Source of the DNA: Candidatus Johnevansia muelleri
GTDB taxonomy: Bacteria; Pseudomonadota; Gammaproteobacteria; Johnevansiales; Johnevansiaceae
Reading direction: 5' to 3'
Length of the DNA stretch: 32,000 bases
NCBI GenBank assembly: GCA_000953435.1
Contig: LM655252.1
Location: 210,001-242,000 of the forward strand
The number at the start of each line of letters is the position of its first letter. Position 1 is the stretch's first letter. The notes under the pieces were generated by a model that was not told the origin of the DNA, made no database searches, and saw only the letters and a program-made list of their open reading frames with translations. The position numbers were made by a program, and so were the translations under genes. Below are positions 2,619 through 32,000 of the stretch, in pieces.

Positions 2619-6505
<3,887 letters not shown>

Positions 6506-9607: not shown

Positions 9608-12438
9608 ACATAATACCTATCTTCACCCGGACCTTCGGGTAGATTTAAAATAGACCTAGCACATAATGTGGGATGTTTATAATTAGTTCCTACATCTGAT
9701 CTACGTTCCCAACTACGTTCACATTTACAATAAGAACTTAATTTAATATTAAGTTTTAAACCATGTATTTCAGTTTTTATAGCTGACATACCTAAGTCAA
9801 TTGGAAATATTTTAGCTTCTGAAGTAATAAATACAAATCGTAATTCATTTTTTAATTTAGATAAAATTTTATAATAATATTTATCTACATAAAGAATAAC
9901 CTCAGTATCTATTGATGCTTTAATTAAACCAGAAAGTCTGTAATCTTCTATACATTTATTAACAGCTTGCTTAACAAGAATTATATTATTCCAAAAATCC
10001 CTATTCATATAATCATTATCTGATAACATAAATAAATCATCGTACCATGTTTCTAAAAAAACACTCTCTAAACGTTTACCAGGAATTTTTTCGTAAATTT
10101 CATCAGCTGTAAAAGATAAAATTGGTGTAATCCAAATATTTAGTGATTTTAAAATATGATATAATGCTGTTTGACAACTACGTCTAGCTATAGAATTTTT
10201 CTTTGTTGTATATTGTCTATCTTTTATAATATCAAAATAAAAAGCACCCATATATTTATTACAAAAAATATAAATATATTTATAAATATCTTTGAAGTTA
10301 TATTTTTCAAATGCATTTTTAATTTGTAATTGTGATAATGCTGTACAATCAATTGCCCATTTATCTAATGAAATCATTTTTTCAAAAGAAATAATATTAT
10401 ATTGTGGATCAAAATCATATATATTTGCTAACAAAAACCGTGCTGTATTACGTATTTTTCTATAAGCTTCTACTGTATTTTTTAAAATTTCATTTGAAAT
10501 TGTTATTTCTCCAGAATAATCTGTTGATGCAACCCATAAACGTAAAACATCTGCACCTAATTTTTCTATTACTTCCATTGGTCTAATAATGTTATTTTCT
10601 GATTTTGACATTTTTTTCCCGTTAGCATCAACAATAAATCCATGTGTTATTACATAATTATATGGTATAGCATTATATATTGCTATACTTGTTAATAAAG
10701 ATGACTGAAACCATCCTCTATATTGATCTAATCCTTCTATATACAAATCAGAATAATTATTTTTCATTGGATGAGATCCTGAGAACACATGATAATGTGT
10801 TGTTCCAGAATCAAACCAGACATCAAGTATATCTTCAAATTTATTATAATCTTTTAAGTCATATCCTAGTAAATCATTCTTATCAATATTAAACCAAGCT
10901 TCAATTCCACATTTTTCTATATTTTTTGCTACTAATTCTAGTATTTCTATTGTATTAGGATGTAATTTACCTGTTTTGTTATGTATAAAAAATGGAATTG
11001 GTACTCCCCAATTACGTTGTCTAGAAATACACCAATCAGGACGAGTTTTAATCATATTATATAATAGTGATTTCCCCCAATGTGGTAAAAATATTATTGA
11101 GTTAATTTTTTTTAATGCAATATTACGTAATGATTTTCCTTCAGAATTTTTTTTATCAATATTAATAAACCATTGAGGTGTAACACGATAAATTAATGGT
11201 GATTTATGTCGCCAACAATACATATAATTATGTATAATTTTTTTATGGTATAATAAATATCCTAATTTATTAAGTTTTTCTATAATTTTAAAATTAGCTT
11301 TCCATATTAACATACCTCCTACAATAGGAAATGATTTTATAAAATATCCATTACTTTGAATAGGATTAATAATTTTATTATTAATTAAATTATAATTATA
11401 AAAATCATCTGTACCATAAGCAGGGGCTGAATGAACTATTCCTGTTCCAGATGTACATTGTACATAATTAGCTAAACATATAATAGAAAATTTATTTATA
11501 AAAGGATGAATATATTTAATATCATATAAGGTATTACCTTTATTTGTTGCAATAATATTACCTTTAAGACCATAACGTGTTAAACATGTTTTTACAAGTA
11601 TTTCAGCTAATAATAATAGATAATTTCCTACATCTACTAATGCATATAAAACTTCTGGATTTACATTTAAAACTTGATTAACTGGAATAGTCCAGGGTGT
11701 TGTTGTCCAAATTACGGCTAACGTTGATTTATAAATTTTAATACCAAATACTTTTTCTAATTTATTTTTTTCAATTATAGGAAATGCAACATCAATAGCA
11801 TCTGATTCTTTATCATTATACTCTACTTCTGCTTCTGCAATTGCAGATTTACAATCAAAACACCAATTAACTGGTTTCAATCCATTAAAAATATATCCTT
11901 TTTTAAAAAGTTCTGATAAGGCCCTGATTTCACATGCTTCATTAATAAAATTCATTGTTAAATATGGATTAGTCCAATTACCTAAAACCCCTAATCGCAT
12001 AAAATCCAATTTTTGATTAATTACTTGATTTTTTGCATAAATACGACAGTATTCTCTTTTTTTTTTTGATGATAAAGTTTTACCATAAATAGTATCAATT
12101 TTATGTTCTATTGGTAATCCATGACAATCCCAACCAGGAATATAAGGAGTATCTAAACCTGATAATGTTTTATATTTTATAATAAAATCTTTTAAAATTT
12201 TATTAAATGCATGACCCATATGAATATTTCCATTTGCATAAGGTGGGCCATCATGTAATATAAATTTTTTACATTTTTTACGTGCTTTACGTAATTTTTC
12301 ATATAATTTAATATCACGCCAATTTATTATACGCTTAGGTTCTTGTATTGGTAATTTACCTCGCATTGGAAAATTAGTAATAGGTAAATTTAAAGTATTT
12401 TTATATTTATTAATATTATTAATCATAAATTTTAACAA
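9604..12438 (-). CDS. ileS: Isoleucyl-tRNA synthetase
   Basis: 944-aa ORF. HIGH region PPYANGNIHMGHAF, KMSKS loop KKMSKSENN, WCISRQRNWGVPIP, and N-terminal KNTLNLPITNFPMRG. The true start could be the second Met (12426). The C-terminal zinc-knuckle region is present but altered (see findings). Confidence 0.95.
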   Translation of the reverse strand: MLKFMINNINKYKNTLNLPITNFPMRGKLPIQEPKRIINWRDIKLYEKLRKARKKCKKFILHDGPPYANGNIHMGHAFNKILKDFIIKYKTLSGLDTPYIPGWDCHGLPIEHKIDTIYGKTLSSKKKREYCRIYAKNQVINQKLDFMRLGVLGNWTNPYLTMNFINEACEIRALSELFKKGYIFNGLKPVNWCFDCKSAIAEAEVEYNDKESDAIDVAFPIIEKNKLEKVFGIKIYKSTLAVIWTTTPWTIPVNQVLNVNPEVLYALVDVGNYLLLLAEILVKTCLTRYGLKGNIIATNKGNTLYDIKYIHPFINKFSIICLANYVQCTSGTGIVHSAPAYGTDDFYNYNLINNKIINPIQSNGYFIKSFPIVGGMLIWKANFKIIEKLNKLGYLLYHKKIIHNYMYCWRHKSPLIYRVTPQWFINIDKKNSEGKSLRNIALKKINSIIFLPHWGKSLLYNMIKTRPDWCISRQRNWGVPIPFFIHNKTGKLHPNTIEILELVAKNIEKCGIEAWFNIDKNDLLGYDLKDYNKFEDILDVWFDSGTTHYHVFSGSHPMKNNYSDLYIEGLDQYRGWFQSSLLTSIAIYNAIPYNYVITHGFIVDANGKKMSKSENNIIRPMEVIEKLGADVLRLWVASTDYSGEITISNEILKNTVEAYRKIRNTARFLLANIYDFDPQYNIISFEKMISLDKWAIDCTALSQLQIKNAFEKYNFKDIYKYIYIFCNKYMGAFYFDIIKDRQYTTKKNSIARRSCQTALYHILKSLNIWITPILSFTADEIYEKIPGKRLESVFLETWYDDLFMLSDNDYMNRDFWNNIILVKQAVNKCIEDYRLSGLIKASIDTEVILYVDKYYYKILSKLKNELRFVFITSEAKIFPIDLGMSAIKTEIHGLKLNIKLSSYCKCERSWERRSDVGTNYKHPTLCARSILNLPEGPGEDRYYV

Positions 12439-12743: not shown

Positions 12744-13829
12744 TTAATATTTTAATGATTCTTTTTGTATAATATTCCGTGTGTTTTTTTCTTTTTCTAA
12801 ATATTTTTTATCTTTCATAATTATTTTATATTGTTTATTTAACCATAAATATATAGCTTCTACAAGTTCTTTACATCCTTCACCTGTAATAGAAGAAATA
12901 GGAAAAATTGGACCTTTCCAATTAATATGTTTAATTATATATTTAACAAATATATATCTTTTTTTTTCATTTAATAAATCAATTTTATTTAAAATTAACC
13001 AATTTGGAAATTTGATAAACATATTTAAAGAAAATTTTTTTAATTCATTAATTATAATTTTAAATGATTCTATAGGATTACTATAACTTATATCAATAAA
13101 ATGAAATAACACTCTTGAACGTATTAAATGTTTAATAAAAGTAATACCTAAACCAGCCCCTTTGAAAGCTCCTTTAATTAAAGGAGGAATATCTATAATA
13201 ATAAAATTATCATATGCACCCATTTTAATAACTCCCAAATTAGGATATAACGTTGTAAATGGATAATTAGCTATTTTAGGATGTGCTCTAGAAATAACAC
13301 TAATTAATGTTGTTTTACCAATATTAGGTAAACCTAATATACCTACATCAGCTATTAACTTTAATTCAAGTATTAACTTACGATGTTGTCCTTTTTTACC
13401 GTTTGTTATTTTAATAGGTATTTGATTAATTGACGATTTAAAACACGTATTTCCTAAACCTTTAAATCCACCTTGTGCTATTTTAAAATATTGACCTGAT
13501 ATAATTATATCAAAAATTATTTCACTAGTTTCTATATCAATTACTGTTGTACCAATTGGCACTTTAATATATAAGTTTTTACCTTTTTTACCACTCATGT
13601 TATTATGTTGTCCAGGATGTCCATCTTCTGCTTTATAAAAATATTTAGATTTTAAATTACTTAATGTATTAATTGAATTATCACCAATAATAAAAATATT
13701 CCCCCCATTCCCCCCATTCCCACCATTGGGACCTCCTTTTGATATAAATTTTTCACGTCTAAAACTTAAACAACCGTTACCACCTTGACCAGCCTTAATA
13801 AATATTAAAGCTTTATCAATAAATTGCAT
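12744..13829 (-). CDS. obg: GTPase Obg/CgtA
   Basis: 361-aa ORF. Obg-fold N-terminus MQFIDKALIFIKAGQGGNGCLSFRREKF with a glycine-rich GGPNGGNGGNGGN stretch. G1 GLPNIGKTTL, G2 YPFTT, G4 NKID. Downstream of rplU-rpmA, as is conserved. The G3 motif is atypical (DIPP, see findings). Confidence 0.92.
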   Translation of the reverse strand: MQFIDKALIFIKAGQGGNGCLSFRREKFISKGGPNGGNGGNGGNIFIIGDNSINTLSNLKSKYFYKAEDGHPGQHNNMSGKKGKNLYIKVPIGTTVIDIETSEIIFDIIISGQYFKIAQGGFKGLGNTCFKSSINQIPIKITNGKKGQHRKLILELKLIADVGILGLPNIGKTTLISVISRAHPKIANYPFTTLYPNLGVIKMGAYDNFIIIDIPPLIKGAFKGAGLGITFIKHLIRSRVLFHFIDISYSNPIESFKIIINELKKFSLNMFIKFPNWLILNKIDLLNEKKRYIFVKYIIKHINWKGPIFPISSITGEGCKELVEAIYLWLNKQYKIIMKDKKYLEKEKNTRNIIQKESLKY

Positions 13830-15458: not shown

Positions 15459-17459
15459 ATGTTATATATTAATCGTAGGCAGCTTGCAAATGCTATTCGT
15501 ATTATTTCTATAGATTCTATACAAAAAGCTAATTCTGGTCACCCTGGAATGCCTATGGGAATGGCTGATATCGCTGAAGTACTTTGGAATAATCATTTAA
15601 AACATAATCCGAATAATCCTAATTGGGAAAATAGAGATAGATTTATTATTTCTAATGGACATGGTTCAATGTTACATTATTCATTATTACATTTAACTGG
15701 TTATAATTTATCAATACATGATCTTAAAAATTTTAGACAATTAGAATCTAAAACACCAGGACATCCTGAATATAATCAGACATTAGGTATAGAAGCAACA
15801 ACAGGACCTTTAGGACAAGGTCTAGCAAATGCAATAGGAATGGCCATTGCTGAACGTATTCTATCGGCTAAATTTAATCGTAAAAATTATAAAATTATTG
15901 ATCATAGAATATGGACATTTGTGGGGGATGGCTGTTTAATGGAAGGTATTAGTCATGAAGTTTGTTCTTTAGCTGGAACTTTAGGTTTAGGAAATTTAAT
16001 AGTATTTTATGATAATAATGGTATATCTATTGATGGGAATACTAATGGGTGGTTTACTGATGATACATATAAACGTTTTGAATCTTATAATTGGAATGTA
16101 ATAGGACCTATAAATGGTCATAATGCTGAAGAAATAAATAAAGCAATTATAAAAGCAAAAATAATTACTAAAAAACCTTCTTTAATTATTTGTAATACTA
16201 TTATTGGTTTTGGATCTCCTAATAAATATGGAACATCTGAATGTCATGGTGCCCCATTAGGTGACATTGAAATAAAACTTGTTAGAAAACAACTTAATTG
16301 GAATTATGCTCCATTTAAAATACCTAAAAAAATTTATAATGCATGGAATGCAATAGATAAAGGTAATAAATTAGAATATAATTATAATAAAAATTTTGAA
16401 GAATATAAAAAAAAATATCCCCAATTAGCTAATGAATTAAAACGTAGATATAGAAAAAATTTACCAGAATATTTAGATAGTAATAAAATTATAAAAGAAA
16501 TTCAAGAAAAATGTGAATATATTGCATCACGTAAAGCTTCTCAAAATATTCTTAATATATTAGGACCTAGTATACCTGAACTTTTAGGAGGAAGTGCAGA
16601 TCTTACTCCATCTAATTTAACTATGTGGAAAGGTGCTAAACCAATTAGTAAAGAAAATTTTAATGGTTCATATATACATTATGGAGTACGTGAATTTGGT
16701 ATGGGAGCTATATCTAATGGAATTGCTTATCATGGAGGTTTTATTCCATATGATGCAACTTTTCTTGTATTTATGGAATATATGTATAATGCTATTCGCA
16801 TGTCTGCAATTTCTAAACTTCATATAATTCATGTTTTTACTCATGATTCAATAGGTTTAGGTGAAGATGGTCCTACACATCAACCTATAGAGCAATTAGA
16901 AGCATTACGTGCTATTCCAGAATTAAATGTTTGGAGACCCGCTGACTCTACTGAAACTGCTGCTGCATGGTTATCTGCAATAGAAAATAAAGAAGGACCA
17001 ACAGCAATAATTTTATCACGTCAAGAATTATCTATAAATAAACGTAATTCTAATCAAATTACTAATATAAAACTGGGAGGTTATATTATAAGAGATTGCC
17101 AATATTTACCTGATTTAATAATAATAGGAAGTGGGTCTGAAGTTATTATAGCAATTGAAGCCGCTAAATATTTAGAAAAAAAAAATAAAAAAATTCGTGT
17201 TGTTTCTATGCCTTGTACATCTATCTTTGATAAACAAAAAATAATTTATCGTAACTTTGTATTACCACCATATATACGTGCTAGAGTTGCTATAGAAGCT
17301 GGGTCACCTACAGGGTGGTATAAATATGTAGGTCTTGATGGAGAAGTTTTGGGTATTAATAATTATGGTTATTCAGGAAAACCTAAAGATTTATTTAAAA
17401 AATTTGGATTTACTGTTTCAAATTTAATAAAAACTTGTGAAAAAATGTTATTTAATTAA
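15459..17459 (+). CDS. tkt: Transketolase
   Basis: 666-aa ORF with SGHPGMPMG, the ThDP motif GDGCLMEGISHE, and HDSIGLGEDGPTHQPIE. AAGGATGA Shine-Dalgarno upstream. Confidence 0.95.
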   Translation: MLYINRRQLANAIRIISIDSIQKANSGHPGMPMGMADIAEVLWNNHLKHNPNNPNWENRDRFIISNGHGSMLHYSLLHLTGYNLSIHDLKNFRQLESKTPGHPEYNQTLGIEATTGPLGQGLANAIGMAIAERILSAKFNRKNYKIIDHRIWTFVGDGCLMEGISHEVCSLAGTLGLGNLIVFYDNNGISIDGNTNGWFTDDTYKRFESYNWNVIGPINGHNAEEINKAIIKAKIITKKPSLIICNTIIGFGSPNKYGTSECHGAPLGDIEIKLVRKQLNWNYAPFKIPKKIYNAWNAIDKGNKLEYNYNKNFEEYKKKYPQLANELKRRYRKNLPEYLDSNKIIKEIQEKCEYIASRKASQNILNILGPSIPELLGGSADLTPSNLTMWKGAKPISKENFNGSYIHYGVREFGMGAISNGIAYHGGFIPYDATFLVFMEYMYNAIRMSAISKLHIIHVFTHDSIGLGEDGPTHQPIEQLEALRAIPELNVWRPADSTETAAAWLSAIENKEGPTAIILSRQELSINKRNSNQITNIKLGGYIIRDCQYLPDLIIIGSGSEVIIAIEAAKYLEKKNKKIRVVSMPCTSIFDKQKIIYRNFVLPPYIRARVAIEAGSPTGWYKYVGLDGEVLGINNYGYSGKPKDLFKKFGFTVSNLIKTCEKMLFN

Positions 17460-18318: not shown

Positions 18319-20697
18319 TTATATATTTATATTAGCAAATAAAGCATATTTTTTTATAAAATTAAATCTAGGTTCAACTTCTTTACCCATTAAAATATTA
18401 AAAATATTATCTGCAGTTGCTACATTTTTTATAGTTATTTTAAGTAACATACGCTTATTAGGATTCATAGTAGTTTCCCAAAGTTGTTGTGGATTCATTT
18501 CTCCTAATCCTTTATATCTTTGTATATTTAATTTACTTTTTGTTTCATTAATTAAATAATTTATTAATTCATTAAAATTATATATATTTTTTTTATATCC
18601 ATTATATAATATATATGAATTATTTTTAAATATATCTCTTATTCTCAAACAATTAATTTTAAAATAATCATATGAAAAAATAAAATTTAAATTAATTAAA
18701 TATTTTTTTATTTTACTATAAATTTTGATTATTATTAATGGCAAATAAATTTGATTTTTATAATCATAATATATTTGAAAGTTATATGTTTTTAATTCTT
18801 TATCTGTTAATTTACATTTTAATTCATTTATCCATATTTCTACAGATTTTTTATTTTTTAATAAATCTAAAGTTAAATTATTTATATAAATTATTTTATA
18901 TAAAATATTAATAATATAATATAAACTATTATTTTTTGTAAAAATATTAATATATTGAAAAATTAAAACTTTTAATTCTTGGCCTAAAATAAGTTTATTA
19001 TTTATATGTAATTTTGTAATATTAATTGATTTATTAATTAAATATTCTTTTAAAAAAAAATCATTTTTTAAATAAATAGTATTTTTTCCATTGTTAACTT
19101 TATAAAGTGGAGGTTGTGCAATAAATAAATAACCTTTCTTAATAATATAAGGCATATATCTAAAAAAAAATGTTAATAAAAGTGTTCTAATATGTGAACC
19201 ATCTATATCAGCATCTGTCATAATTATAATTGAGTGGTAACGTAATTTATGGGGTTTAAAATTTTTTCCAATACCACATCCTAAAGTAGAAATTAAAAAA
19301 TTAATTTCATCTGATGATAATATTTTATCAAAATTAGATTTTTCAACATTTAAAATTTTACCTTTAATAGGTAATATTGCTTGATTACTACGATCTCTAC
19401 TTTGTTTCGCAGATCCACCTGCAGAATCTCCTTCTACTATATAAAGTTCTGCTTTCTTAGGATCTTTTATTTGACAATCAGATAATTTTACTGGTAAATT
19501 AGATATATTAAAAATTCCTGTTTTACGAGTAATTTCACGTGCTTTACTAGCAGCATATCTTGCCATAGCTGATTTAATAATTTTCTTTACAATAATTTTT
19601 GATTGTTTTTTATTTTTTAGTAAATAATCATAAAACTTATTGCTAATTTCTTTTTCTACTGCTATTTTAACGTTAGAAGAAACAAGTTTATCTTTTATTT
19701 GTGATGAAAATTTAGGATCAGGTAATTTTATTGAAATAATAGCTGTTAAACCTTCTCTTATATCTTCTCCATTCGTTATAATTTTTCTTTTTTTTTGTAA
19801 ATGTTTATTATTAATATAATTATTAATAGTTCTTGTTAATCCTGTTTTAAACCCCACCAAGTGGGTACCACTAATTTGGGGGATATTATTAGTATAACAA
19901 TATATATTTTCTTTATATGAATTATTCCATTGCATTACAAAATTAATTTCAATATTATATTTTTTACAATAATTTGAAAAAAAAATTATATGTGAAATTA
20001 CATATTTATCTTTATTAAGATAATTAAGAAATTCACATAAACCACCTAAATTATAAAATATATTTTTTTTTTTCTTACGTTTATCAACAAGTTTAATATA
20101 TATTCCTGGATTTAAAAATGATAATTCTCTAAATCTCTTTTCAATAATTTCATAATAAAATTTTATTTTTGAAAAAATTTTGGAAGAAGGTTTAAAATGT
20201 ATTTTAGTACCTGATTTTTTAGTTTTTCCAATTAATTTTAATGGATTTACAGGTTTACCATTAATATAATTTTGTTCATAAATTTTACCATTTCTATATA
20301 TTATTAAATTTAATTTTTCAGAAAGAGCATTAACTACAGAAATACCTACTCCATGTAATCCCCCAGATATTTTATAAGAATTATTATCAAATTTACCTCC
20401 TGCATGTAAAATAGTCATAATAACTTCTGCTGCTGAAATACCTTCTTCTTTATGTATATCTGTTGGTATCCCTCTACCATTATCGTTAACAGTAATTGAT
20501 TCATCTGAATAAATAATTATACTAATATTATTACAATAACCTGCTAATGCTTCATCAATTGAATTATCTACTATTTCGAATACCATCTGATGTAGACCAC
20601 TTCCATCATTAGTATCACCAATATACATACCTGGTCTTTTACGAACAGCATCAAGACCTTTAAGTACTTGAATACTTGAAGAATCATATTTTATCAT
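18319..20697 (-). CDS. gyrB: DNA gyrase subunit B
   Basis: 792-aa ORF. GHKL ATPase motifs VFEIVDNSIDEALAG, DNGRGIP, GGLHGVG. Toprim motifs ELYIVEGDSAGGSAKQ and DADIDGSHI. Also PPLYK and RYKGLGEMNPQQLWETTM. Confidence 0.96.
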   Translation of the reverse strand: MIKYDSSSIQVLKGLDAVRKRPGMYIGDTNDGSGLHQMVFEIVDNSIDEALAGYCNNISIIIYSDESITVNDNGRGIPTDIHKEEGISAAEVIMTILHAGGKFDNNSYKISGGLHGVGISVVNALSEKLNLIIYRNGKIYEQNYINGKPVNPLKLIGKTKKSGTKIHFKPSSKIFSKIKFYYEIIEKRFRELSFLNPGIYIKLVDKRKKKKNIFYNLGGLCEFLNYLNKDKYVISHIIFFSNYCKKYNIEINFVMQWNNSYKENIYCYTNNIPQISGTHLVGFKTGLTRTINNYINNKHLQKKRKIITNGEDIREGLTAIISIKLPDPKFSSQIKDKLVSSNVKIAVEKEISNKFYDYLLKNKKQSKIIVKKIIKSAMARYAASKAREITRKTGIFNISNLPVKLSDCQIKDPKKAELYIVEGDSAGGSAKQSRDRSNQAILPIKGKILNVEKSNFDKILSSDEINFLISTLGCGIGKNFKPHKLRYHSIIIMTDADIDGSHIRTLLLTFFFRYMPYIIKKGYLFIAQPPLYKVNNGKNTIYLKNDFFLKEYLINKSINITKLHINNKLILGQELKVLIFQYINIFTKNNSLYYIINILYKIIYINNLTLDLLKNKKSVEIWINELKCKLTDKELKTYNFQIYYDYKNQIYLPLIIIKIYSKIKKYLINLNFIFSYDYFKINCLRIRDIFKNNSYILYNGYKKNIYNFNELINYLINETKSKLNIQRYKGLGEMNPQQLWETTMNPNKRMLLKITIKNVATADNIFNILMGKEVEPRFNFIKKYALFANINI

Positions 20698-20711: not shown

Positions 20712-21848
20712 TTATAATAGCATTGCCATTATAATATGTTTTGATTCTATTTTATAAAAATAATTATTTTGTTCTTGAATAACTAATATACTTTTATTAT
20801 ATTTAGAAAATATAATACATATATATTCATTATCAAATACATTAAGTATATCAATTAAATAATTTATATTTAAACCGATTTCTAAATTATAAATTTTATA
20901 ATTAATTTTAATATTTTCTTCTGCTTCATCTTTTTGTATATTATTAAGTTGAACTATTAATTTATTATTAATAATACGTAATATTATACCACTATTTTTT
21001 TCAGTTAAAATTACTGAAATCCTTGATATTGATTTTAATAATTTCTTTCTATTAACAAATAATTTAGTAGCCATATTTATTAAAATAAGATTTTTATAAT
21101 CAGGAAAATTTCCATAAATTAATTTTGATGTAAAAAGATAATTATTCATATATAAATTAATATAATTTGATCCAAATATAATAGTAATTATATCATTATC
21201 ATTATTATTATCATTTAATAATTTTTTAATTTTTATAATACTTTTTCTGGGTATAATTATTTTTTTATAATTATCAATTCTATTTAGATAAGTAGAACAA
21301 ATAGCCATTCTATGACCATCTGTTGCTACAAAACTTAAAATATTTTTACAAATTTCTATTAGCATACCATTTAAATAATATCTAATATCTTTATTAGCCA
21401 TTGCAAAATAAGTATAATCAATTAACTTTTTAAGTATTTTTTTTTTAATAGATATTTTTATATCTGTTAGTGATTTTTTTATGTTATTTAGTTTAGGAAA
21501 TTTTTTGTATGATAATGTTGATAATCTAAATATAGAATAGCCAGATTTAATTACTACACGATTAGTTTCTTCAATGAAAATATTAATTTTCGCCCCGGGT
21601 GATAATGATTTACATATTTTTAATAATTTATATGCAGGAATATTAATATTTCCATTAATTTCTATATTATAAATTTTAACATATCCAGTTAATTCTATTT
21701 CTAGATCTGTACTACTAATTGTAAGTATTTTGTCTTTTACTTTTAAAAAAATATTAGAAAGTATATTTAATGTTTGTTTATTTTCTACTATGGTTACAAC
21801 TAAATAAATTATTTTTATTAATAATTCTCTTAATATTGTAAATTTCAT
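20712..21848 (-). CDS. dnaN: DNA polymerase III beta sliding clamp
   Basis: 378-aa ORF starting MKFTILRELLIK. The length and three-domain repeat pattern fit a beta clamp (ATDGHRMA motif present). The position immediately upstream of gyrB fits conserved dnaN-(recF)-gyrB synteny. Confidence 0.88.
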   Translation of the reverse strand: MKFTILRELLIKIIYLVVTIVENKQTLNILSNIFLKVKDKILTISSTDLEIELTGYVKIYNIEINGNINIPAYKLLKICKSLSPGAKINIFIEETNRVVIKSGYSIFRLSTLSYKKFPKLNNIKKSLTDIKISIKKKILKKLIDYTYFAMANKDIRYYLNGMLIEICKNILSFVATDGHRMAICSTYLNRIDNYKKIIIPRKSIIKIKKLLNDNNNDNDIITIIFGSNYINLYMNNYLFTSKLIYGNFPDYKNLILINMATKLFVNRKKLLKSISRISVILTEKNSGIILRIINNKLIVQLNNIQKDEAEENIKINYKIYNLEIGLNINYLIDILNVFDNEYICIIFSKYNKSILVIQEQNNYFYKIESKHIIMAMLL

Positions 21849-21933
21849 TTATATTTTATTCTTATTAAATAGATTTTAAAAATGTAAAATTAATTTTTAT
21901 AATAAATAATTAATATTTATTTTTAGGAATATT

Positions 21934-22068
21934 ATGAAACGTACATTTCAACCAAGTATTATTAAAAAAAATAGAAATTATGGTTTTAGATATCGTATGT
22001 CTTATAAAAATGGTATAAAAATATTATCACGACGTCGTAAAAAAATGCGGTATTATTTAACAATATAA
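21934..22068 (+). CDS. rpmH: 50S ribosomal protein L34
   Basis: Below the ORF-track size cutoff, so I translated it by hand: [44 protein letters not shown] (44 aa, TAA at 22066-22068). The canonical L34 start is [14 protein letters not shown] Shine-Dalgarno upstream. rnpA starts 2 nt after the stop. Confidence 0.93.
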
Positions 22069-22069
22069 T

Positions 22070-22357
22070 ATGAAATATAATTGTCATAAAAAAATATTAA
22101 AAATATTTAGTAATAATTTTATTATTTTTATTAATTTAAATAAAAAAATATTATTAATTTTTAAAAAAAAACACCATAAAAAAGCAATTGATCGTAATTT
22201 ATTAAAACGTTTATCTAGAGAATATATAAGATTACATAAAAATAAACTATCATCTATTATTATAATTTCTAGAAAAAGTTTTATAATAAATAAAAAAAAA
22301 ATATTTAAAATATTAAAATTTATTTTTCAACTAATTTATTTTTATAATAAAAAATAA
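22070..22357 (+). CDS. rnpA: Ribonuclease P protein component (shortened)
   Basis: 95-aa basic ORF directly after rpmH (conserved rpmH-rnpA pair). Contains the RNR-type motif AIDRNLLKRLSREYIRL. Shorter than the ~119-aa E. coli protein. Confidence 0.8.
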   Translation: MKYNCHKKILKIFSNNFIIFINLNKKILLIFKKKHHKKAIDRNLLKRLSREYIRLHKNKLSSIIIISRKSFIINKKKIFKILKFIFQLIYFYNKK

Positions 22358-22361
22358 TTTT

Positions 22362-23732
22362 ATGTATCATAAGCTATTTACAAAAATAAAAGATACTATT
22401 ACTGCACAATCTACTCCTTCAGGACGTGGTGGTATAGGAATTGTACGGGTTTCAGGAAATAAAGTTAAAAGTATTGCTAAAGGAATACTAGGATTTCAAC
22501 CTAAACCTAGATATGCCCATTATGGTTCATTTATTGGTAATAAATATGAAATTATTGATGAAGGCATTGCATTATTTTTTTTAAAACCCCATTCTTTAAC
22601 TGGTGAAGATATACTTGAAATTCAATCACATGGTGGTCCTATTATAATAGATTATATTATTGAAAGAACTATAAATTTGGGAGCTAGATTAGCACGTCCA
22701 GGTGAATTTTTAGAGAGAGCATTTATTAATAATAAAATTGATTTAATAAAAGCTGAAGGAATTAATGATTTAATAGAAGCAAATTCACGTATAGCTGCAC
22801 AAAATGCTATATATTGTATACAAGGTAACTTATCTAATATATTAAATACTTTAATAAAAGAATTTATTAAATTACGTATAAATTTAGAATATGCAATAAA
22901 TTTTCCTGATGAAAATATAGATTTTTTAAAATATAATATATTTAAAAAATTTTCTTTTTTAAAAAAAAATCTATCAAATTTATTAAATAAATCAACACAA
23001 AATTTAAAAATACGGGAGGGAATTAATGTTGTTATTATAGGACAACCTAATGTTGGTAAATCTAGTTTATTAAATGCACTAACTGAAAAAGAAAGTGCTA
23101 TTGTTACTGATATAGCAGGAACTACACGAGATGTAATACATGAATATATTTATATTCATGGAATACAAATTAATTTAATTGATACAGCTGGATTATGTGA
23201 AACATTAAATACAGTAGAAAAAATTGGAATTAAACGTGCCTGGACAGAAATAAAAAAAGCTGATCACATACTATTAGTAATTGATGCTAGTAAAGCTATA
23301 AACATTAATTTAAATCATCCGTCAATAAAAATTTTATTAAATTTACCTGATTTAAATAAAATTACAATAATATATAATAAAATTGATCTTATTAATCCAC
23401 AAATTAATGAATACTTATCATCTAGTATTCCAACAATTATTCCATTGTCAACCAAAAATGGGGTAGGTATAGAAAAATTAAAAATACATTTAAAAAAAAT
23501 AATGAAGTTAAATACTATTTATGGTAAATTTTATACTAATAGACGACACATAAATGTTATAGAAAATGCTTTAAAAATATTAGAAAAAAATAAAATTAAA
23601 AAAATAGATTATATTGAATTATTAGCAGAAGATTTGCGATATGCGCAAAATATTATTTCTACAATTACTGGCGAATTTACTTCAGAAAATTTATTAAATG
23701 AGATATTTAATAATTTTTGTATAGGAAAATAA
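22362..23732 (+). CDS. mnmE: tRNA modification GTPase MnmE (TrmE)
   Basis: 456-aa ORF. N-terminal TIxAQSTPxGRGGIGIVRVSG, G-domain motifs GQPNVGKSSLLN, GTTRD, DTAGL, NKIDL, and the C-terminal CIGK tetrapeptide. Confidence 0.95.
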   Translation: MYHKLFTKIKDTITAQSTPSGRGGIGIVRVSGNKVKSIAKGILGFQPKPRYAHYGSFIGNKYEIIDEGIALFFLKPHSLTGEDILEIQSHGGPIIIDYIIERTINLGARLARPGEFLERAFINNKIDLIKAEGINDLIEANSRIAAQNAIYCIQGNLSNILNTLIKEFIKLRINLEYAINFPDENIDFLKYNIFKKFSFLKKNLSNLLNKSTQNLKIREGINVVIIGQPNVGKSSLLNALTEKESAIVTDIAGTTRDVIHEYIYIHGIQINLIDTAGLCETLNTVEKIGIKRAWTEIKKADHILLVIDASKAININLNHPSIKILLNLPDLNKITIIYNKIDLINPQINEYLSSSIPTIIPLSTKNGVGIEKLKIHLKKIMKLNTIYGKFYTNRRHINVIENALKILEKNKIKKIDYIELLAEDLRYAQNIISTITGEFTSENLLNEIFNNFCIGK

Positions 23733-27105: not shown

Positions 27106-27209
27106 ATTAAATAAATATTTAATTTATTTAATAAAATTAATTAATCTTGATTTTTTAATATAAATATGTTTAATTAAAATTAAACTACAAATATTTAAGG
27201 AATATATAA

Positions 27210-27940: not shown

Positions 27941-28513
27941 ATGATACAATATAAAATTATTGCTATACAATATGCTAAAGCTGCATTTGAATTTGCATTA
28001 GAGCATAATAATTTAGATTTATGGTATAATATGTTTAAGTTTTTAACAAAATTAATAAATAATAATTGTTGTATTAAATATATTATTAAAAATATTAAAA
28101 TAGAAAGTAATAAAAAATTAGAATTACTAATTAATATATATAATGATTTTATGCATAATAAAAGTGATATTTACCATCTTAATTTTATAAAAATTATTGC
28201 TAAACAAAACCGTATTACACTTTTACCTATAATAGAAGAACAATATAAAATTTTATATGATTCTTATTATAAATATTTTTCTATAAAATTAGTAAGTGCT
28301 TATGAACTTAGTACTTATGAAAAAATTGAAATTCTTAAATCGCTTAAAAAGCGATATAATAGTAAGAATATATATATTATTAATATTTCAATTAATAAAT
28401 CATTAATTGGAGGGTTAATTATATATATCAATAATACAGTTATTGATTGCTCTTTATTGAGCAAGATTTTAAAATTAAAATATATTTTAAAAGGCAATAT
28501 ATTATGCAAATAG
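27941..28513 (+). CDS. atpH: F0F1 ATP synthase subunit delta
   Basis: 190-aa ORF. N-terminal [22 protein letters not shown] matches E. coli delta (VARPYAKAAFDFAVEH). Operon position between atpF and atpA. Confidence 0.88.
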
Positions 28514-30060
28514 ATAATTCTGAAATCAGTAATATAATAAAAAAACGTATTAAACAAGGTAATATTAAATATGCAGAATCACATAATGAAGGTACTATTA
28601 TTAGTATTATAGATGGTATTGTTAGTATTTATGGACTTGATGATGCAATGTATGGAGAAATGATTCTATTTCCAGGTAATATTTATGGAATGGTGCTTAA
28701 TTTAGAACGTTATAGTGTAGGGGTTATTGTTTTAGGAGACTATAAACAACTTCAAGAAGGTATGATCGCAAAATGTACAGGTAAAATTTTAGAAATACCA
28801 GTAGGACCAGAATTAGTAGGTAGAGTTGTAGATGCATTAGGTAATCCTATAGATAATAAAGGTGAAATATATACTAAAGTTATGGATGCTGTAGAAAAAA
28901 TTGCCCCTGGTGTTATTTCACGTAAAAGTGTAACTCAACCGATTCATACTGGTTTAAAAGCTATTGATGCAATGGTACCAATTGGTATGGGTCAGAGAGA
29001 ATTAATTATAGGTGATCGTCAAATAGGTAAATCTTCAATAGCTATTGATACAATAATTAATCAAAAATATAAAGATATTATTTGTATATATGTGGCTATA
29101 GGTCAAAAACAATCAAATATTGCTAATATGGTTAGTAAACTTGAAGAATATGGTGCTATGAATCATACTATTGTGGTTATAGCAGGAGCTTCTGATCCTG
29201 CTGCTCTGCAATATTTAGCACCTTATAGTGGTTGTACTATGGGGGAATATTTTCGTGATAGAGGACAAGATGCTTTAATAGTGTATGATGATCTTACAAA
29301 ACAAGCTTGGGCATATCGTCAAATTTCATTATTACTTAAACGGCCACCTGGAAGAGAAGCTTATCCAGGTGATATTTTTTATTTACATTCACGTTTACTT
29401 GAACGTGCATCAAGAGTTAGTGCTAAGTATGTTGAAAATTTTACTAATGGAGAAATTAAAGGTAAAACAGGTTCATTAACTGCACTTCCAATTATTGAAA
29501 CTCAAGGTGGTGATGTATCTGCTTATGTTCCAACTAATGTAATATCAATTACTGATGGTCAAATTTTTTTAGAAACATCTATGTTTAATTCAGGAATTAG
29601 GCCTGCAATTAACGCAGGATTATCAGTATCACGTGTAGGTGGTTCTGCGCAAACTAATATAATAAAAAAATTAGGTGGACATATTAGACTTTCATTAGCA
29701 CAATATCGTGAGTTAGCTGCCTTTTCTCAATTTGCATCAGATCTTGATGAAAATACTCGTAAACAAATTGAACATGGTAAACGTGTTACAGAACTAATGA
29801 AACAAAAACAATTTAGACCTATGTCTGTTTCTGAAATAGCAATATCCTTATTTGCAGCAAATGAAAATTTTCTTAGTAATATTTCTGTCGATAATATTTT
29901 AAATTTTGAATCTAAACTTCTTGAATATATGCATATGGAACATAAATCTTTAATTTATGAAATAAATATAACTGGGGATTATAATAATCAAATTGAAAAT
30001 GAATTACGAAAATGTATTAAAAAATTTCAAAAAATTTATAAAAAATGTAATAATGAGTAG
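28504..30060 (+). CDS. atpA: F0F1 ATP synthase subunit alpha
   Basis: I trimmed the track ORF (28447..30060) to Met20. [18 protein letters not shown] aligns with the E. coli start MQLNSTEISELIKQRI, which gives a 10-nt overlap with atpH. Walker [16 protein letters not shown], and conserved [30 protein letters not shown]. Confidence 0.95.
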
Positions 30061-30064
30061 TTAC

Positions 30065-30384
30065 AAAACTGTATTGAACCATTTAAAAAAAACTGTATTG
30101 AACCATTTAAAAAAAAAACTGTATTGAACCATTTAAAAAAAAACTGTATTGAACCATTTAAAAAAAAACTGTATTGAAAAATTTAAAAAAAAACTGTATT
30201 GAAACATTTAAAAAAAAACTGTATTGAACCATTTAAAAAAAAACTGTATTGAACCATTTAAAAAAAAACTGTATTGAACCATTTAAAAAAAACTGTATTG
30301 AACCATTTAAAAAAAAACTGTATTGAACCATTTAAAAAAAAACTGTATTGAACCATTTAAAAAAAAAACTGTATTGAACCATTT
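30065..30384. repeat. Tandem direct repeat array: 13 copies, period 24-26 bp, core CTGTATTGAACCATTT plus an A8-10 linker
   Basis: Hand-counted core starts are 30069, 30093, 30119, 30144, 30169, 30194, 30219, 30244, 30269, 30293, 30318, 30343 and 30369. Eleven cores are identical. Copy 5 is CTGTATTGAAAAATTT and copy 6 is CTGTATTGAAACATTT. The linkers are pure A runs of 8, 10, 9, 9, 9, 9, 9, 9, 8, 9, 9 and 10 nt. The array lies entirely in the atpA-atpG spacer. Confidence 0.97.
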
Positions 30385-30397
30385 TATTATAAATTTT

Positions 30398-30402
30398 AAG
30401 GA
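30398..30402 (+). promoter_or_regulatory. Shine-Dalgarno sequence for atpG
   Basis: AAGGA lies 6 nt upstream of the atpG ATG (30409). The same AAGGA/AGGA element precedes pepA, tkt, atpE, rpmH and atpD in this window. Confidence 0.55.
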
Positions 30403-30408
30403 AAACTT

Positions 30409-31263
30409 ATGATTATAACAAAAGAAATAAAAACACAAATTAAAAGTATTGAAAGTATTAAAAAAATTACTAATGCTATGGAAATGGTATCTGCATCTAA
30501 AATGCGTAGATCACAAGAACGTATGTACGCATGTATACCTTATATGCATAAAATTACGAAAATATGTAAAAATATTGCAATTAATAATAATAATAATACA
30601 TATTTTATTAATCGTCCTATAAAAAATATAGGATATATATTAATTACTAGTGATCGAGGTCTTTGTGGGGGATTAAATATTAATGTATTTAAAATTATTT
30701 TAAATGATATACAAAAGATGTATAAATTAAATATAAATCATTCATTTTGTGTATTAGGAAACAAAGGTATAGATTTTTTTAAAAAATATGGCGGTAAGTT
30801 AATAGCTACTAAAGAAGACATTGGATATACACCTAGTATAAATAATATTATTGGACCCGTTAAAGTAATGTTAAATGCTTTTAATGAAGGTAAAATTGAT
30901 TGTTTGATGTTAGTTTCAAATAAATTTTTAAATACTATGATACAAAAACCTTTTTTACAAAAATTATTACCTATTCACTTTAAAAATTTAAAAAAAAATA
31001 ATCAAAATAATTATATATATGAAACTACAAATTATTCTAATTTAATAGATTGTATTATAGTAAGATATATTGAATCACAAGTTTATAAATCAATTATCGA
31101 AAATATTGCTTGTGAACAAGCAGCACGTATGATGGCTATGAAAAATGCAACAGAAAATGCATTTAACATCATTAAAGAATTAAAATTAATTTATAATAAA
31201 GCTAGACAAGCAGCCATTACTCAAGAAATTTCTGAAATAGTTAATGGTGCTGCTGCTGTTTAA
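30409..31263 (+). CDS. atpG: F0F1 ATP synthase subunit gamma
   Basis: 284-aa ORF. N-terminal KEIKTQIKSIESIKKITNAMEMVSASKMRRSQ and C-terminal YNKARQAAITQEISEIVNGAAAV are the canonical gamma-subunit termini. Confidence 0.94.
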   Translation: MIITKEIKTQIKSIESIKKITNAMEMVSASKMRRSQERMYACIPYMHKITKICKNIAINNNNNTYFINRPIKNIGYILITSDRGLCGGLNINVFKIILNDIQKMYKLNINHSFCVLGNKGIDFFKKYGGKLIATKEDIGYTPSINNIIGPVKVMLNAFNEGKIDCLMLVSNKFLNTMIQKPFLQKLLPIHFKNLKKNNQNNYIYETTNYSNLIDCIIVRYIESQVYKSIIENIACEQAARMMAMKNATENAFNIIKELKLIYNKARQAAITQEISEIVNGAAAV

Positions 31264-31276
31264 ATAATTTAAATAA

Positions 31277-32000
<724 letters not shown>

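What the first reader, a model, noticed from the sequence alone, without database searches (positions are those of the whole stretch)
30061..30408. Near-perfect 13-copy ~25-bp tandem array fills the atpA-atpG spacer of an otherwise gap-free ATP synthase operon
Read directly from the sequence:
- The spacer between the atpA stop (TAG 30058-30060) and the atpG ATG (30409) is 348 bp. It is the largest non-coding stretch in the window and about one third of all intergenic DNA by my calls. Other atp junctions range from a 10-nt overlap to 104 bp.
- 316 bp of the spacer is a head-to-tail array of 13 copies of the 16-nt core CTGTATTGAACCATTT, joined only by A runs of 8-10 nt.
- The periods are 24, 26, 25, 25, 25, 25, 25, 25, 24, 25, 25 and 26 bp.
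- Eleven cores are identical. Copies 5 and 6 are adjacent C-to-A variants (..GAAAAATTT and ..GAAACATTT).
- The last core runs straight into the unique sequence TATTATAAATTTTAAGGAAAACTT-ATG, which carries the atpG Shine-Dalgarno.
- There is no ATG on the + strand of the array. On the - strand each unit has an ATG (AAATGGTTCAATACAG), but the 25-bp period rotates the frame into TAA after about 24 codons.
- I saw no other tandem array in the 32 kb.
- A weak echo of the unit (AAAAGTATTGAAAGTATTAAAAAAA, sharing GTATTGAA plus a poly-A run) lies inside atpG at 30442-30466.

Why it matters: genomes this compact normally purge non-coding DNA and repeats. A long, almost uniform array inside an essential operon is therefore either a very recent slippage expansion or is being maintained.

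Hypotheses (inference only):
(a) a hypervariable VNTR with no function;
(b) an array of binding sites for a DNA- or RNA-binding protein;
(c) an mRNA element (12 A8-10 tracts) that acts as a processing or decay site or a translational uncoupler. It would separate atpIBEFHA from atpGD(C) expression;
(d) an internal promoter cluster. Each unit offers TTGAAC, then 17 nt, then TATTGA from the next unit, which is a weak sigma-70-like match;
(e) an assembly artefact in a low-complexity region.
Basis: partly seen in the sequence, partly recalled or inferred. Interest (0 to 1): 0.7.

Follow-up and report, generated by a model that had tools for sequence, protein, structure and literature searches.

The report
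Minisatellite in a symbiont's ATP-synthase operon
A real 13-copy, 25-bp tandem repeat sits between two ATP-synthase genes of the moss-bug symbiont Candidatus Evansia (Johnevansia) muelleri, but it looks like an ordinary, recently expanded slippage repeat, almost certainly one of eight tandem repeats the genome's authors already counted, and nothing points to a function.

Summary
There are 13 cores of CTGTATTGAACCATTT joined by A8-10 runs at window 30065-30384, inside a 348-bp atpA-atpG spacer (TRF score 587; the next best in the window is 78). The window comes from Ca. Evansia/Johnevansia muelleri (357,498 bp). [quoted passage not shown] Every functional idea I could test failed. No promoter-like or terminator-like site lies in the array. 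The RNA is far less structured than its shuffles (z = +6.2). There is no Rfam hit. Only short ORFs without Shine-Dalgarno sequences are present. The 25-bp period puts the A-tracts out of helical phase, so the array is predicted to be the straightest segment in the window. Evansia lacks rho, rne and pnp, which removes the RNase E and Rho versions of the mRNA hypothesis and explains why the array is tolerated. It keeps recA, recBCD and ruvC, which can homogenise repeats. Free-living relatives have a 76-77-bp spacer with a GC hairpin; Evansia without its 12 extra units would have 48 bp. Best explanation: a young, neutral minisatellite that is passively co-transcribed. No sister genome exists to test copy-number variation. 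Interest is low.

The parts
28504..30060 (+). atpA (F1 alpha). The likely ATG start at 28504 overlaps the end of atpH by 10 nt. The stop is TAG 30058-30060.
   Evidence: NCBIfam TIGR00962, 781 bits. Start inferred from the translation and from where the profile alignment begins.
30061..30408 (.). atpA-atpG intergenic spacer, 348 bp, 19% GC. It is the largest non-coding stretch in the window.
30065..30384 (+). Tandem array: 12.8 copies of the 25-bp unit AAAACTGTATTGAACCATTTAAAAA, that is 13 16-nt cores joined by 12 A8-10 linkers.
   Evidence: TRF score 587; 13 cores.
30169..30209 (+). Two adjacent variant units. Copy 5 has CC>AA and copy 6 has CC>AC. The nested C>A changes imply that a unit was duplicated after it had mutated.
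   Evidence: the duplication history is inferred.
30061..30068 (+). Unique left flank TTACAAAA. Its last four A's are the partial first linker.
30385..30408 (+). Unique right flank TATTATAAATTTTAAGGAAAACTT. It carries the atpG Shine-Dalgarno AAGGA at 30398-30402, 6 nt before the ATG.
30409..31263 (+). atpG (F1 gamma), 284 aa, 100% identical to the Ca. Johnevansia muelleri protein.
   Evidence: NCBIfam NF004144/TIGR01146; P0001.
31289..32000 (+). atpD (F1 beta), the 5' part, which runs off the window. It has its own AGGA Shine-Dalgarno.

Best explanation
The array is a young, lineage-specific minisatellite (a VNTR-type tandem repeat). It arose inside an ordinary short atpA-atpG spacer of about 48 bp.

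Proposed history (inferred):
- A roughly 20-bp piece (AAAA + CTGTATTGAACCATTT) was duplicated.
- The A-linker grew to about 9 nt.
- The resulting 25-bp unit was then amplified one unit at a time by replication slippage and/or RecA-dependent unequal exchange.
- The same processes keep the copies nearly identical.

The array has no sequence-specific function. It is transcribed passively as part of the atp polycistronic mRNA and is tolerated for four reasons:
- It contains no terminator, no stable RNA structure, and no start codon with a ribosome-binding site.
- atpG has its own Shine-Dalgarno in the unique sequence downstream.
- The genome has no Rho factor, so a 348-nt untranslated stretch cannot cause polarity.
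- Loops of 25 nt escape MutS/MutL mismatch repair (established E. coli knowledge).

Shown directly: the anatomy, the absence of signals, and the gene content. Inferred: the slippage and recombination history, and neutrality.
For: - Head-to-tail, near-identical units with sharp boundaries at unique flanks.
- The only substitutions are nested C>A changes in two adjacent copies. The most parsimonious history is a mutation, then duplication of that unit, then a second mutation. All changes go in the direction of the genome's AT bias.
- The genome paper reports eight tandem repeats of 100-330 bp spread around this genome and likens them to Portiera's. Related symbiont genomes carry 10-111 tandem repeats. 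This points to a genome-wide mutational process rather than something specific to atp.
- Free-living relatives have 76-77-bp spacers without any array. Evansia minus 12 x 25 bp gives 48 bp.
- No promoter-like or terminator-like site lies in the array. There is no Rfam match. The RNA MFE is -10.6 against -34.2 kcal/mol in shuffles, z = +6.2. No curvature is predicted. Only ORFs of 32 aa or fewer, without SD, lie inside the array.
- Evansia keeps recA, recBCD, ruvC, mutS, mutL and dnaQ, and lacks rho, rne, pnp, nusA and nusG. The paper calls its recombination machinery complete.
- A/T runs of 8 or more are common: 52 lie outside the array in 32 kb.
- Wolbachia intergenic VNTRs show the same signature, with 98-99% identical periods attributed to slippage plus concerted evolution.
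Against: - Neutrality is inferred from absence of signals, not measured.
- No second Evansia genome exists: the nearest AtpG is 54% identical and the metagenome scan found nothing. The defining VNTR property, copy-number variation, is therefore untested.
- A coding density of 94% implies deletion pressure, so a 300-bp insert inside an essential operon must be either very recent or not strongly deleterious.
- The array replaces a conserved GC hairpin that follows atpA in relatives, so this junction may have a regulatory role.
- I could not inspect the other seven arrays to see whether they share the unit.
- That this array is among the paper's eight is inferred from its size. The paper gives no coordinates in the text or in the supplements I searched.
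Confidence: 0.75

Rival explanations
1. Functional mRNA spacer. The long, unstructured, A-rich untranslated stretch decouples atpG translation from atpA, or acts as a ribosome standby or landing zone. It would help set the 3:1 alpha:gamma ratio and take over from the GC hairpin that follows atpA in free-living relatives.
For: - The RNA is exceptionally unstructured (z = +6.2), and the atpG SD stays unpaired.
- Relatives carry a strong hairpin at exactly this junction (dG -39.7 and -30.6 kcal/mol), so the junction looks like an operon punctuation point.
- The hairpin is gone in Evansia.
- Every other atp junction here is 104 bp or shorter.
Against: - Low structure follows automatically from repeating a unit that is not self-complementary, so it is not evidence of selection.
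- A 48-bp AT-rich spacer would leave the SD just as open.
- Function would not require 13 near-identical units.
- Eight such arrays exist elsewhere in the genome.
- Evansia has no rne, pnp or rho with which to read such a signal.
Confidence: 0.1
2. An array of binding sites for a DNA- or RNA-binding protein. This could be iteron-like, a nucleoid organiser, or a DnaA-independent replication or recombination site in a genome that has lost dnaA.
For: - The format of 13 identical 16-nt sites at regular spacing resembles iterons.
- dnaA is missing from its ancestral place about 8 kb upstream.
- The genome has no clear GC skew, so the origin is unknown.
Against: - The 25-bp period places successive sites about 137-150 degrees apart around the helix, unlike iterons, which lie on one helical face.
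- There is no rep-like gene: the flanks are atpA and atpG.
- The core matches nothing else in the window.
- Two variant copies are tolerated.
- The array sits inside a transcribed essential operon.
Confidence: 0.04
3. An internal promoter cluster that drives atpG-atpD, using TTGAAC of one unit and TATTGA of the next.
For: - rpoD is present.
- TTGAAC matches 4 of 6 positions of the -35 consensus at 17-nt spacing.
- A-tracts upstream could act as UP elements (inference).
Against: - The scan finds no promoter-like site in the array. The region as a whole has fewer hits (4) than its shuffles (9.1 +/- 2.2).
- The proposed -10 hexamer TATTGA matches 3 of 6 positions and lacks the near-invariant final T.
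Confidence: 0.04
4. Partly an artefact. The array is real, but its copy number and the A-run lengths of 8, 9 and 10 are consensus or polishing errors, or they hide within-host heteroplasmy.
For: - The DNA was MDA-amplified from pooled material.
- 454 homopolymer errors were 'corrected' with 100-nt Illumina reads, which cannot be placed uniquely inside a 320-bp array.
- The deviations cancel out (8+10 and 8+9+9+10), as expected for noise around A9.
Against: - 454 reads averaging 800 bp at 253x span the whole array with its flanks.
- The two variant units give internal landmarks.
- This reading concerns details only, not the array's existence.
Confidence: 0.07

Closest known systems
Intergenic VNTRs/minisatellites of endosymbionts (Wolbachia VNTR-105 and VNTR-141; Riegler et al. 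2012, PMC3287509)
   Same: Both are non-coding head-to-tail arrays in an intracellular symbiont. Periods are 98-99% identical within a locus. The accepted explanation is slipped-strand mispairing plus concerted evolution, with no demonstrated function.
   Different: The unit here is much shorter (25 bp against 105-141 bp) and has no internal hairpins. The array lies inside an essential operon rather than between unrelated genes. Copy-number variation is not documented because only one genome exists.
Tandem repeats of the sister symbiont Portiera (Sloan & Moran 2013, PMC3673631; Santos-Garcia et al. 2020, PMC7821994)
   Same: Both belong to the same Halomonadaceae-derived symbiont clade, and the repeats concentrate in intergenic DNA. 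The Evansia genome paper itself draws the parallel.
   Different: Portiera from Bemisia tabaci has mostly 7-bp microsatellites. These are linked to loss of dnaQ and repair genes and to greatly enlarged spacers. Evansia keeps dnaQ, mutS/L and recA/recBCD, is 94% coding, and has only eight arrays.
Plasmid/phage iterons
   Same: Both are regular direct repeats of about 17-25 bp with AT-rich surroundings.
   Different: This array has no Rep gene nearby. Its period is out of helical phase. It sits inside a chromosomal operon, and its linkers are pure poly-A.
Phased A-tract curved DNA (for example kinetoplast-type bends, or upstream curved activating regions)
   Same: It contains 12 A8-10 tracts at regular spacing.
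   Different: The period is 25 bp, not about 10.5 or 21 bp. Wedge models give an end-to-end/contour ratio of 0.98, the straightest 348-bp segment in the window, against 0.36-0.39 for a phased control.
Intercistronic REP/BIME-type elements and post-cistron hairpins
   Same: All occupy an intercistronic position inside an operon. Relatives have a strong hairpin directly after atpA.
   Different: REP elements act through stable stem-loops. This array is the opposite, with almost no predicted structure.

Membership tests
Bacterial minisatellite / VNTR | Head-to-tail tandem copies of a unit of roughly 10-100 bp with high identity between units | tested here: met
   Period 25, 12.8 copies, 96% matches, TRF score 587; 11 of 13 cores are identical.
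Bacterial minisatellite / VNTR | Array is derived relative to the orthologous locus in relatives | tested here: met
   Halomonas and Marinobacter have atpA-atpG spacers of 77 and 76 bp without a repeat.
Bacterial minisatellite / VNTR | Copy number varies between strains or individuals | not testable with these tools
   Only one genome exists. The nearest AtpG is 54% identical. The metagenome scan found 0 hits. The source genome is not in the contig index.
The eight tandem repeats reported for Ca. Evansia muelleri (PMC4122945) | Tandem repeat of 100-330 bp in this genome | tested here: met
   The array is 316-320 bp and the paper gives a range of 100-330 bp. The identity is inferred, because no coordinates are given in the text or the supplements searched.
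Iteron array (replication origin) | Repeats on one helical face (period about 11 or 22 bp), next to a rep gene | tested here: not met
   The phase advance is 129-180 degrees per unit. The flanks are atpA and atpG.
Intrinsically curved phased A-tract DNA | A-tracts repeated in phase with the helix, with predicted planar curvature | tested here: not met
   End-to-end/contour ratio is 0.976-0.979 against 0.355-0.394 for the positive control. All other 348-bp windows are more curved. The wedge parameters were recalled from the literature.
Sigma-70 promoter (cluster) | -35 and -10 hexamers spaced 16-18 nt, at least 9 of 12 matches, with the conserved A2 and T6 of the -10 | tested here: not met
   No site inside 30065-30384.
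Intrinsic terminator / stabilising hairpin / REP-like element | Stable GC-rich stem-loop, with or without a U-run | tested here: not met
   0 terminator-like sites; MFE -10.6 kcal/mol over 391 nt, z = +6.2.
Known structured RNA (Rfam 15) | Match to a covariance model | tested here: not met
   No match at E <= 10 in 29500-31000. At gathering score, the whole window yields only tRNA-Ala.
CRISPR array | Repeats separated by unique spacers of similar length | tested here: not met
   The linkers are A8-10 homopolymers.

The most novel reading that the evidence does not exclude
The array is maintained by selection as an unstructured, A-rich intercistronic module. It would replace the ancestral post-atpA hairpin and tune atpG (gamma) output relative to atpA (alpha), in a symbiont that has lost Rho, RNase E, PNPase and NusA/G. 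That would be a repeat-based form of operon punctuation, with copy number acting as an expression rheostat.
Probability: 0.06. Interest if true: 0.55.

Novelty: already known. Interest (0 to 1): 0.18.

Why it matters
As it stands, this matters little. It is one more slippage-generated tandem repeat in an AT-rich endosymbiont genome, and the original genome paper already counted such repeats. Its practical value is as a likely hypervariable marker for typing Evansia populations or moss-bug lineages. It also shows that a 94%-coding genome with intact recombination and mismatch repair can still carry a 300-bp repeat inside an essential operon, plausibly because loss of Rho removes the polarity cost of untranslated intercistronic RNA. 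It would become interesting only if the array turned out to be conserved across moss-bug symbionts or to change the atpA:atpG expression ratio.

Tried and rejected
1. Scanning genome contigs with the bare 16-mer. This was a poor choice. At 596 Gb, about 280 chance hits are expected. The other seven Evansia arrays could therefore not be examined.
2. Exact-protein look-ups of AtpG to fetch the source contig: not on record.
3. Metagenome scan with a two-unit pattern: 0 hits.
4. The paper's supplements for a list of repeats: nothing.
5. Rfam at a permissive E-value and at gathering score on the whole window: nothing at the array.
6. Structured RNA or DNA element: rejected. The array is less structured than all 100 shuffles.
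7. Curved DNA: rejected.
8. Promoter cluster or terminator: rejected.
9. Small peptides: ORFs lying inside the array are 21-32 aa with no SD, and the frame rotates every unit. Rejected as coding.
10. Origin of the unit from elsewhere in the window. The best alignment scores 25, against a shuffled-unit mean of 25.5, so there is no donor.
11. The atpG 'echo': at chance level.
12. By eye, LexA (CTGT-N8-ACAG), Pho-box, DnaA-box and IHF consensus sequences do not fit the core. This is my reading only, with no tool test.
13. A possible remnant similarity between the core and the Halomonas spacer (..GGTCGAACAGGATT..) was noticed. It is too weak to claim.

Full report
OBSERVATION. The array is real and is exactly as described. 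Reading 29900-30600 shows the atpA stop TAG at 30058-30060, the atpG ATG at 30409, and between them 13 copies of CTGTATTGAACCATTT joined by A-runs. Tandem Repeats Finder reports 30065-30384, period 25, 12.8 copies, 96% matches and score 587; the next-best score among 123 rows for the window is 78. A search allowing up to 3 mismatches finds 13 matches, all inside the array, against 1.02 expected; none of 100 shuffles reaches 13. It also gives the unique flanks: TTACAAAA on the left and TATTATAAATTTTAAGGAAAACTT on the right.

GENE CONTEXT. NCBIfam identifies the surrounding genes as mnmE, erpA, mnmG, a 90-aa ORF, atpB, atpE, atpF, atpH, atpA, then the array, then atpG and atpD. The genome paper annotates the 90-aa ORF as atpI. 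With all genes of the window called, the 348-bp spacer is the largest gap. The next largest is atpB-atpE at 104 bp, and most gaps are under 30 bp. After rpmH is recognised inside the apparent 221-bp dnaN-rnpA gap, the spacer accounts for about 38% of all intergenic DNA.

TWO SMALL CORRECTIONS. Copy 5 has lost the - strand ATG, so 12 of 13 units carry it, not all. The 'echo' GTATTGAA in atpG is at chance level, with 2 non-array occurrences against 2.56 expected.

SOURCE AND PRIOR KNOWLEDGE. AtpG is 100% identical to the protein of Candidatus Johnevansia (formerly Evansia) muelleri, on a 357,498-bp contig. The next-best hit among 5.8 billion proteins is 54% identical, so no sister genome is available. 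The genome paper (Santos-Garcia et al. [quoted passage not shown] Portiera from Bemisia tabaci'. At about 320 bp, this array is almost certainly the longest of those eight. That identification is inferred, because no coordinates are given and the supplements say nothing on the point. Tandem repeats are routinely tabulated for this symbiont clade: 10, 31, 3 and 111 in four Portiera genomes and 11 in Uzinura. The premise that a compact symbiont genome should hold no such array is therefore too strong.

IS IT AN ARTEFACT? The genome was assembled from MDA-amplified DNA, using 454 Titanium reads (average 800 bp, 253x) and 2x100 Illumina reads (557x). Homopolymers were polished with the Illumina reads. 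Reads of 800 bp span the array together with its flanks, so its existence and approximate copy number are credible. The 8/9/10 variation in the A-runs is less trustworthy. 454 miscounts homopolymers, and 100-nt reads cannot be placed uniquely inside a 320-bp array. The deviations also cancel out (8+10, 8+9+9+10).

TESTS OF FUNCTIONAL READINGS.
- Promoter cluster. The sigma-70 scan of 29800-30700 finds four sites, none in the array, against 9.1 +/- 2.2 in shuffles. It finds no terminator-like site.
- Structured RNA or DNA. The 391-nt transcript segment folds at -10.6 kcal/mol, against -34.2 +/- 3.8 for shuffles (z = +6.2; all 100 shuffles fold better). The - strand as DNA gives z = +5.4. This is the expected consequence of repeating a unit that is not self-complementary, and it is not evidence of selection. 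It does exclude hairpin-based mechanisms such as a terminator, a REP-like stabiliser or an RNase III site.
- Known RNA families. None match, even at E <= 10.
- Coding. ORFs lying inside the array are 21-32 aa; the longest that overlap it, 43 and 44 aa, run out into atpG and atpA. None has a Shine-Dalgarno, and the frame rotates with the 25-bp period.
- Curvature. A 25-bp period advances the helical phase by about 129-180 degrees per unit, so the 12 A-tract bends cancel. Two wedge models give an end-to-end/contour ratio of 0.976-0.979. That makes the array the straightest 348-bp segment in the window (others 0.84 +/- 0.10). A phased A6 control gives 0.355-0.394 (the wedge parameters were recalled from the literature).
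- Dispersed element. The unit has no relative elsewhere in the 32 kb. The best alignment scores 25, against 25.5 for shuffled units.

GENE CONTENT CONSTRAINS THE MECHANISM. Table S2 of the genome paper lists rpoD, dnaQ, recA, recB, recC, recD, ruvC, radA, mutS, mutL, mfd and rnc for Evansia. In contrast, rho, rne, pnp, nusA, nusG, greA and yidC appear only on the 'Portiera_strain' sheet, meaning they are absent from Evansia. Three consequences follow.
- An RNase E or PNPase processing or decay site, or a Rho-dependent attenuator, cannot be the array's role.
- Without Rho there is no polarity penalty for a 348-nt untranslated stretch inside an operon. This helps to explain why the array is tolerated (inference).
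- Recombination is intact; the paper calls it 'complete, and probably active'. Unequal exchange and gene conversion can therefore both expand the array and homogenise it. Loops of 25 nt lie beyond the range of MutS (established knowledge for E. coli).

COMPARATIVE ANCHOR. In Halomonas (L121) and Marinobacter (L122) the atpA-atpG spacer is 77 and 76 bp. It starts with a strong GC hairpin directly after the atpA stop: -39.7 kcal/mol with z = -3.9, and -30.6 kcal/mol with z = -2.2. Evansia has lost that hairpin. Removing the 12 extra units leaves a 48-bp spacer. The array is therefore a lineage-specific expansion within an ordinary short spacer.

HISTORY OF THE ARRAY (inference). The left flank ends in AAAA and the array ends exactly at a core. 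All the linkers are about A9. This suggests that a segment of about 20 bp was duplicated, the linker grew, and the resulting 25-bp unit was then amplified. The variants are nested: the consensus is CC, copy 6 is AC and copy 5 is AA, and the two are adjacent. The simplest account is a C>A change, duplication of that unit, and then a second C>A change. This points to unit-by-unit turnover, with substitutions that follow the genome's AT bias. Poly-A/T runs of 8 or more are common throughout the window (52 outside the array), so the linkers match the genome's mutational habits.

BEST EXPLANATION (about 0.75). The array is a young, neutral or nearly neutral minisatellite, generated and homogenised by slippage and unequal recombination. 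It is passively co-transcribed with the atp operon. It is harmless because it has no terminator, no structure and no competing start site. atpG also has its own AAGGA Shine-Dalgarno 6 nt before its ATG, and the genome has no Rho.

RIVALS.
- Functional unstructured spacer or translational uncoupler that replaces the ancestral hairpin (about 0.10).
- Details of copy number and linker length are artefactual or heteroplasmic (about 0.07).
- Protein-binding or iteron-like array (about 0.04).
- Internal promoter cluster (about 0.04).

COMPARISON WITH KNOWN SYSTEMS. The array works like, and most probably is, a bacterial VNTR of the kind described for Wolbachia. Those are intergenic, their periods are 98-99% identical, and they are attributed to slippage plus concerted evolution. 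Similar repeats are known for Portiera. It differs in its short, hairpin-free unit of core plus poly-A, in lying inside an essential operon, and in occurring in a genome that still has dnaQ, mismatch repair and recombination. The defining VNTR property, copy-number polymorphism, cannot be tested because only one genome exists. The array fails the tested criteria for iterons, curved DNA, promoters, terminators or REP elements, CRISPR arrays and every Rfam family.

VERDICT. This kind of feature is already known and was already counted in this genome's own paper. Interest is low (0.18). What remains open is whether the array is conserved or variable among moss-bug symbionts, and whether it changes atpA:atpG expression. 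The steps listed above would settle both questions.

Noticed in passing
window 20712-22068: dnaN (- strand, 20712-21848) and rpmH (+ strand, 21934-22068, MKRTFQPS...) are divergent neighbours separated by only 85 bp of AT-rich DNA. dnaA, which normally lies between them beside the ancestral oriC, is absent. The genome paper never mentions dnaA and reports no clear GC skew, so how and where replication starts is open.
   Followed up: partly
window 22070-23732: rnpA (95 aa, a weak match below its cut-off) is followed 4 bp later by mnmE. yidC, which normally sits between them, is missing. This agrees with Table S2 of the genome paper, where yidC is Portiera-only.
   Followed up: partly
L121 2924-2960 and L122 2925-2958: In Halomonas and Marinobacter a strong GC-rich hairpin (GGCCCGCC...GGCGGGCC; -39.7 and -30.6 kcal/mol for the whole spacer) follows the atpA stop codon directly, with no U-run after it. 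It looks like a conserved intercistronic punctuation element, either an mRNA stabiliser or an attenuator. It is lost in Evansia.
   Followed up: partly
window 6440-6452, 12057-12067, 20063-20073: Very long homopolymers lie inside intact genes: T13 near the 5' end of ilvC (A13 on the sense strand), T11 in ileS and T11 in gyrB. In all, 52 A/T runs of 8 or more lie outside the array. These are candidate sites for transcriptional slippage, or for residual 454 homopolymer error.
   Followed up: no
window 30323-30412: A 29-aa + strand ORF starts at a TTG inside the array, with no Shine-Dalgarno. It ends in a TGA that overlaps the atpG start (ATGA), the geometry of translational coupling. This is probably coincidence.
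   Followed up: no
window 13698-13727: A GC-rich 9-bp tandem repeat (ATTCCCCCC x3.3, 95% matches) lies inside obgE on the - strand. It presumably encodes part of the glycine-rich N-terminal domain of Obg. It stands out in a window of about 23% GC.
   Followed up: no
window 27106-27209: The atpB-atpE spacer (104 bp) is the second-largest gap in the window and the only other sizeable gap in the atp operon. It precedes the most highly expressed subunit (c), where E. coli has a translational enhancer (from memory, not tested).
   Followed up: no
window 17448-17459: The convergent genes tkt (+) and a prpB/PEP-mutase-like gene (-, below the equivalog cut-offs) overlap by 12 nt at their 3' ends.
   Followed up: no
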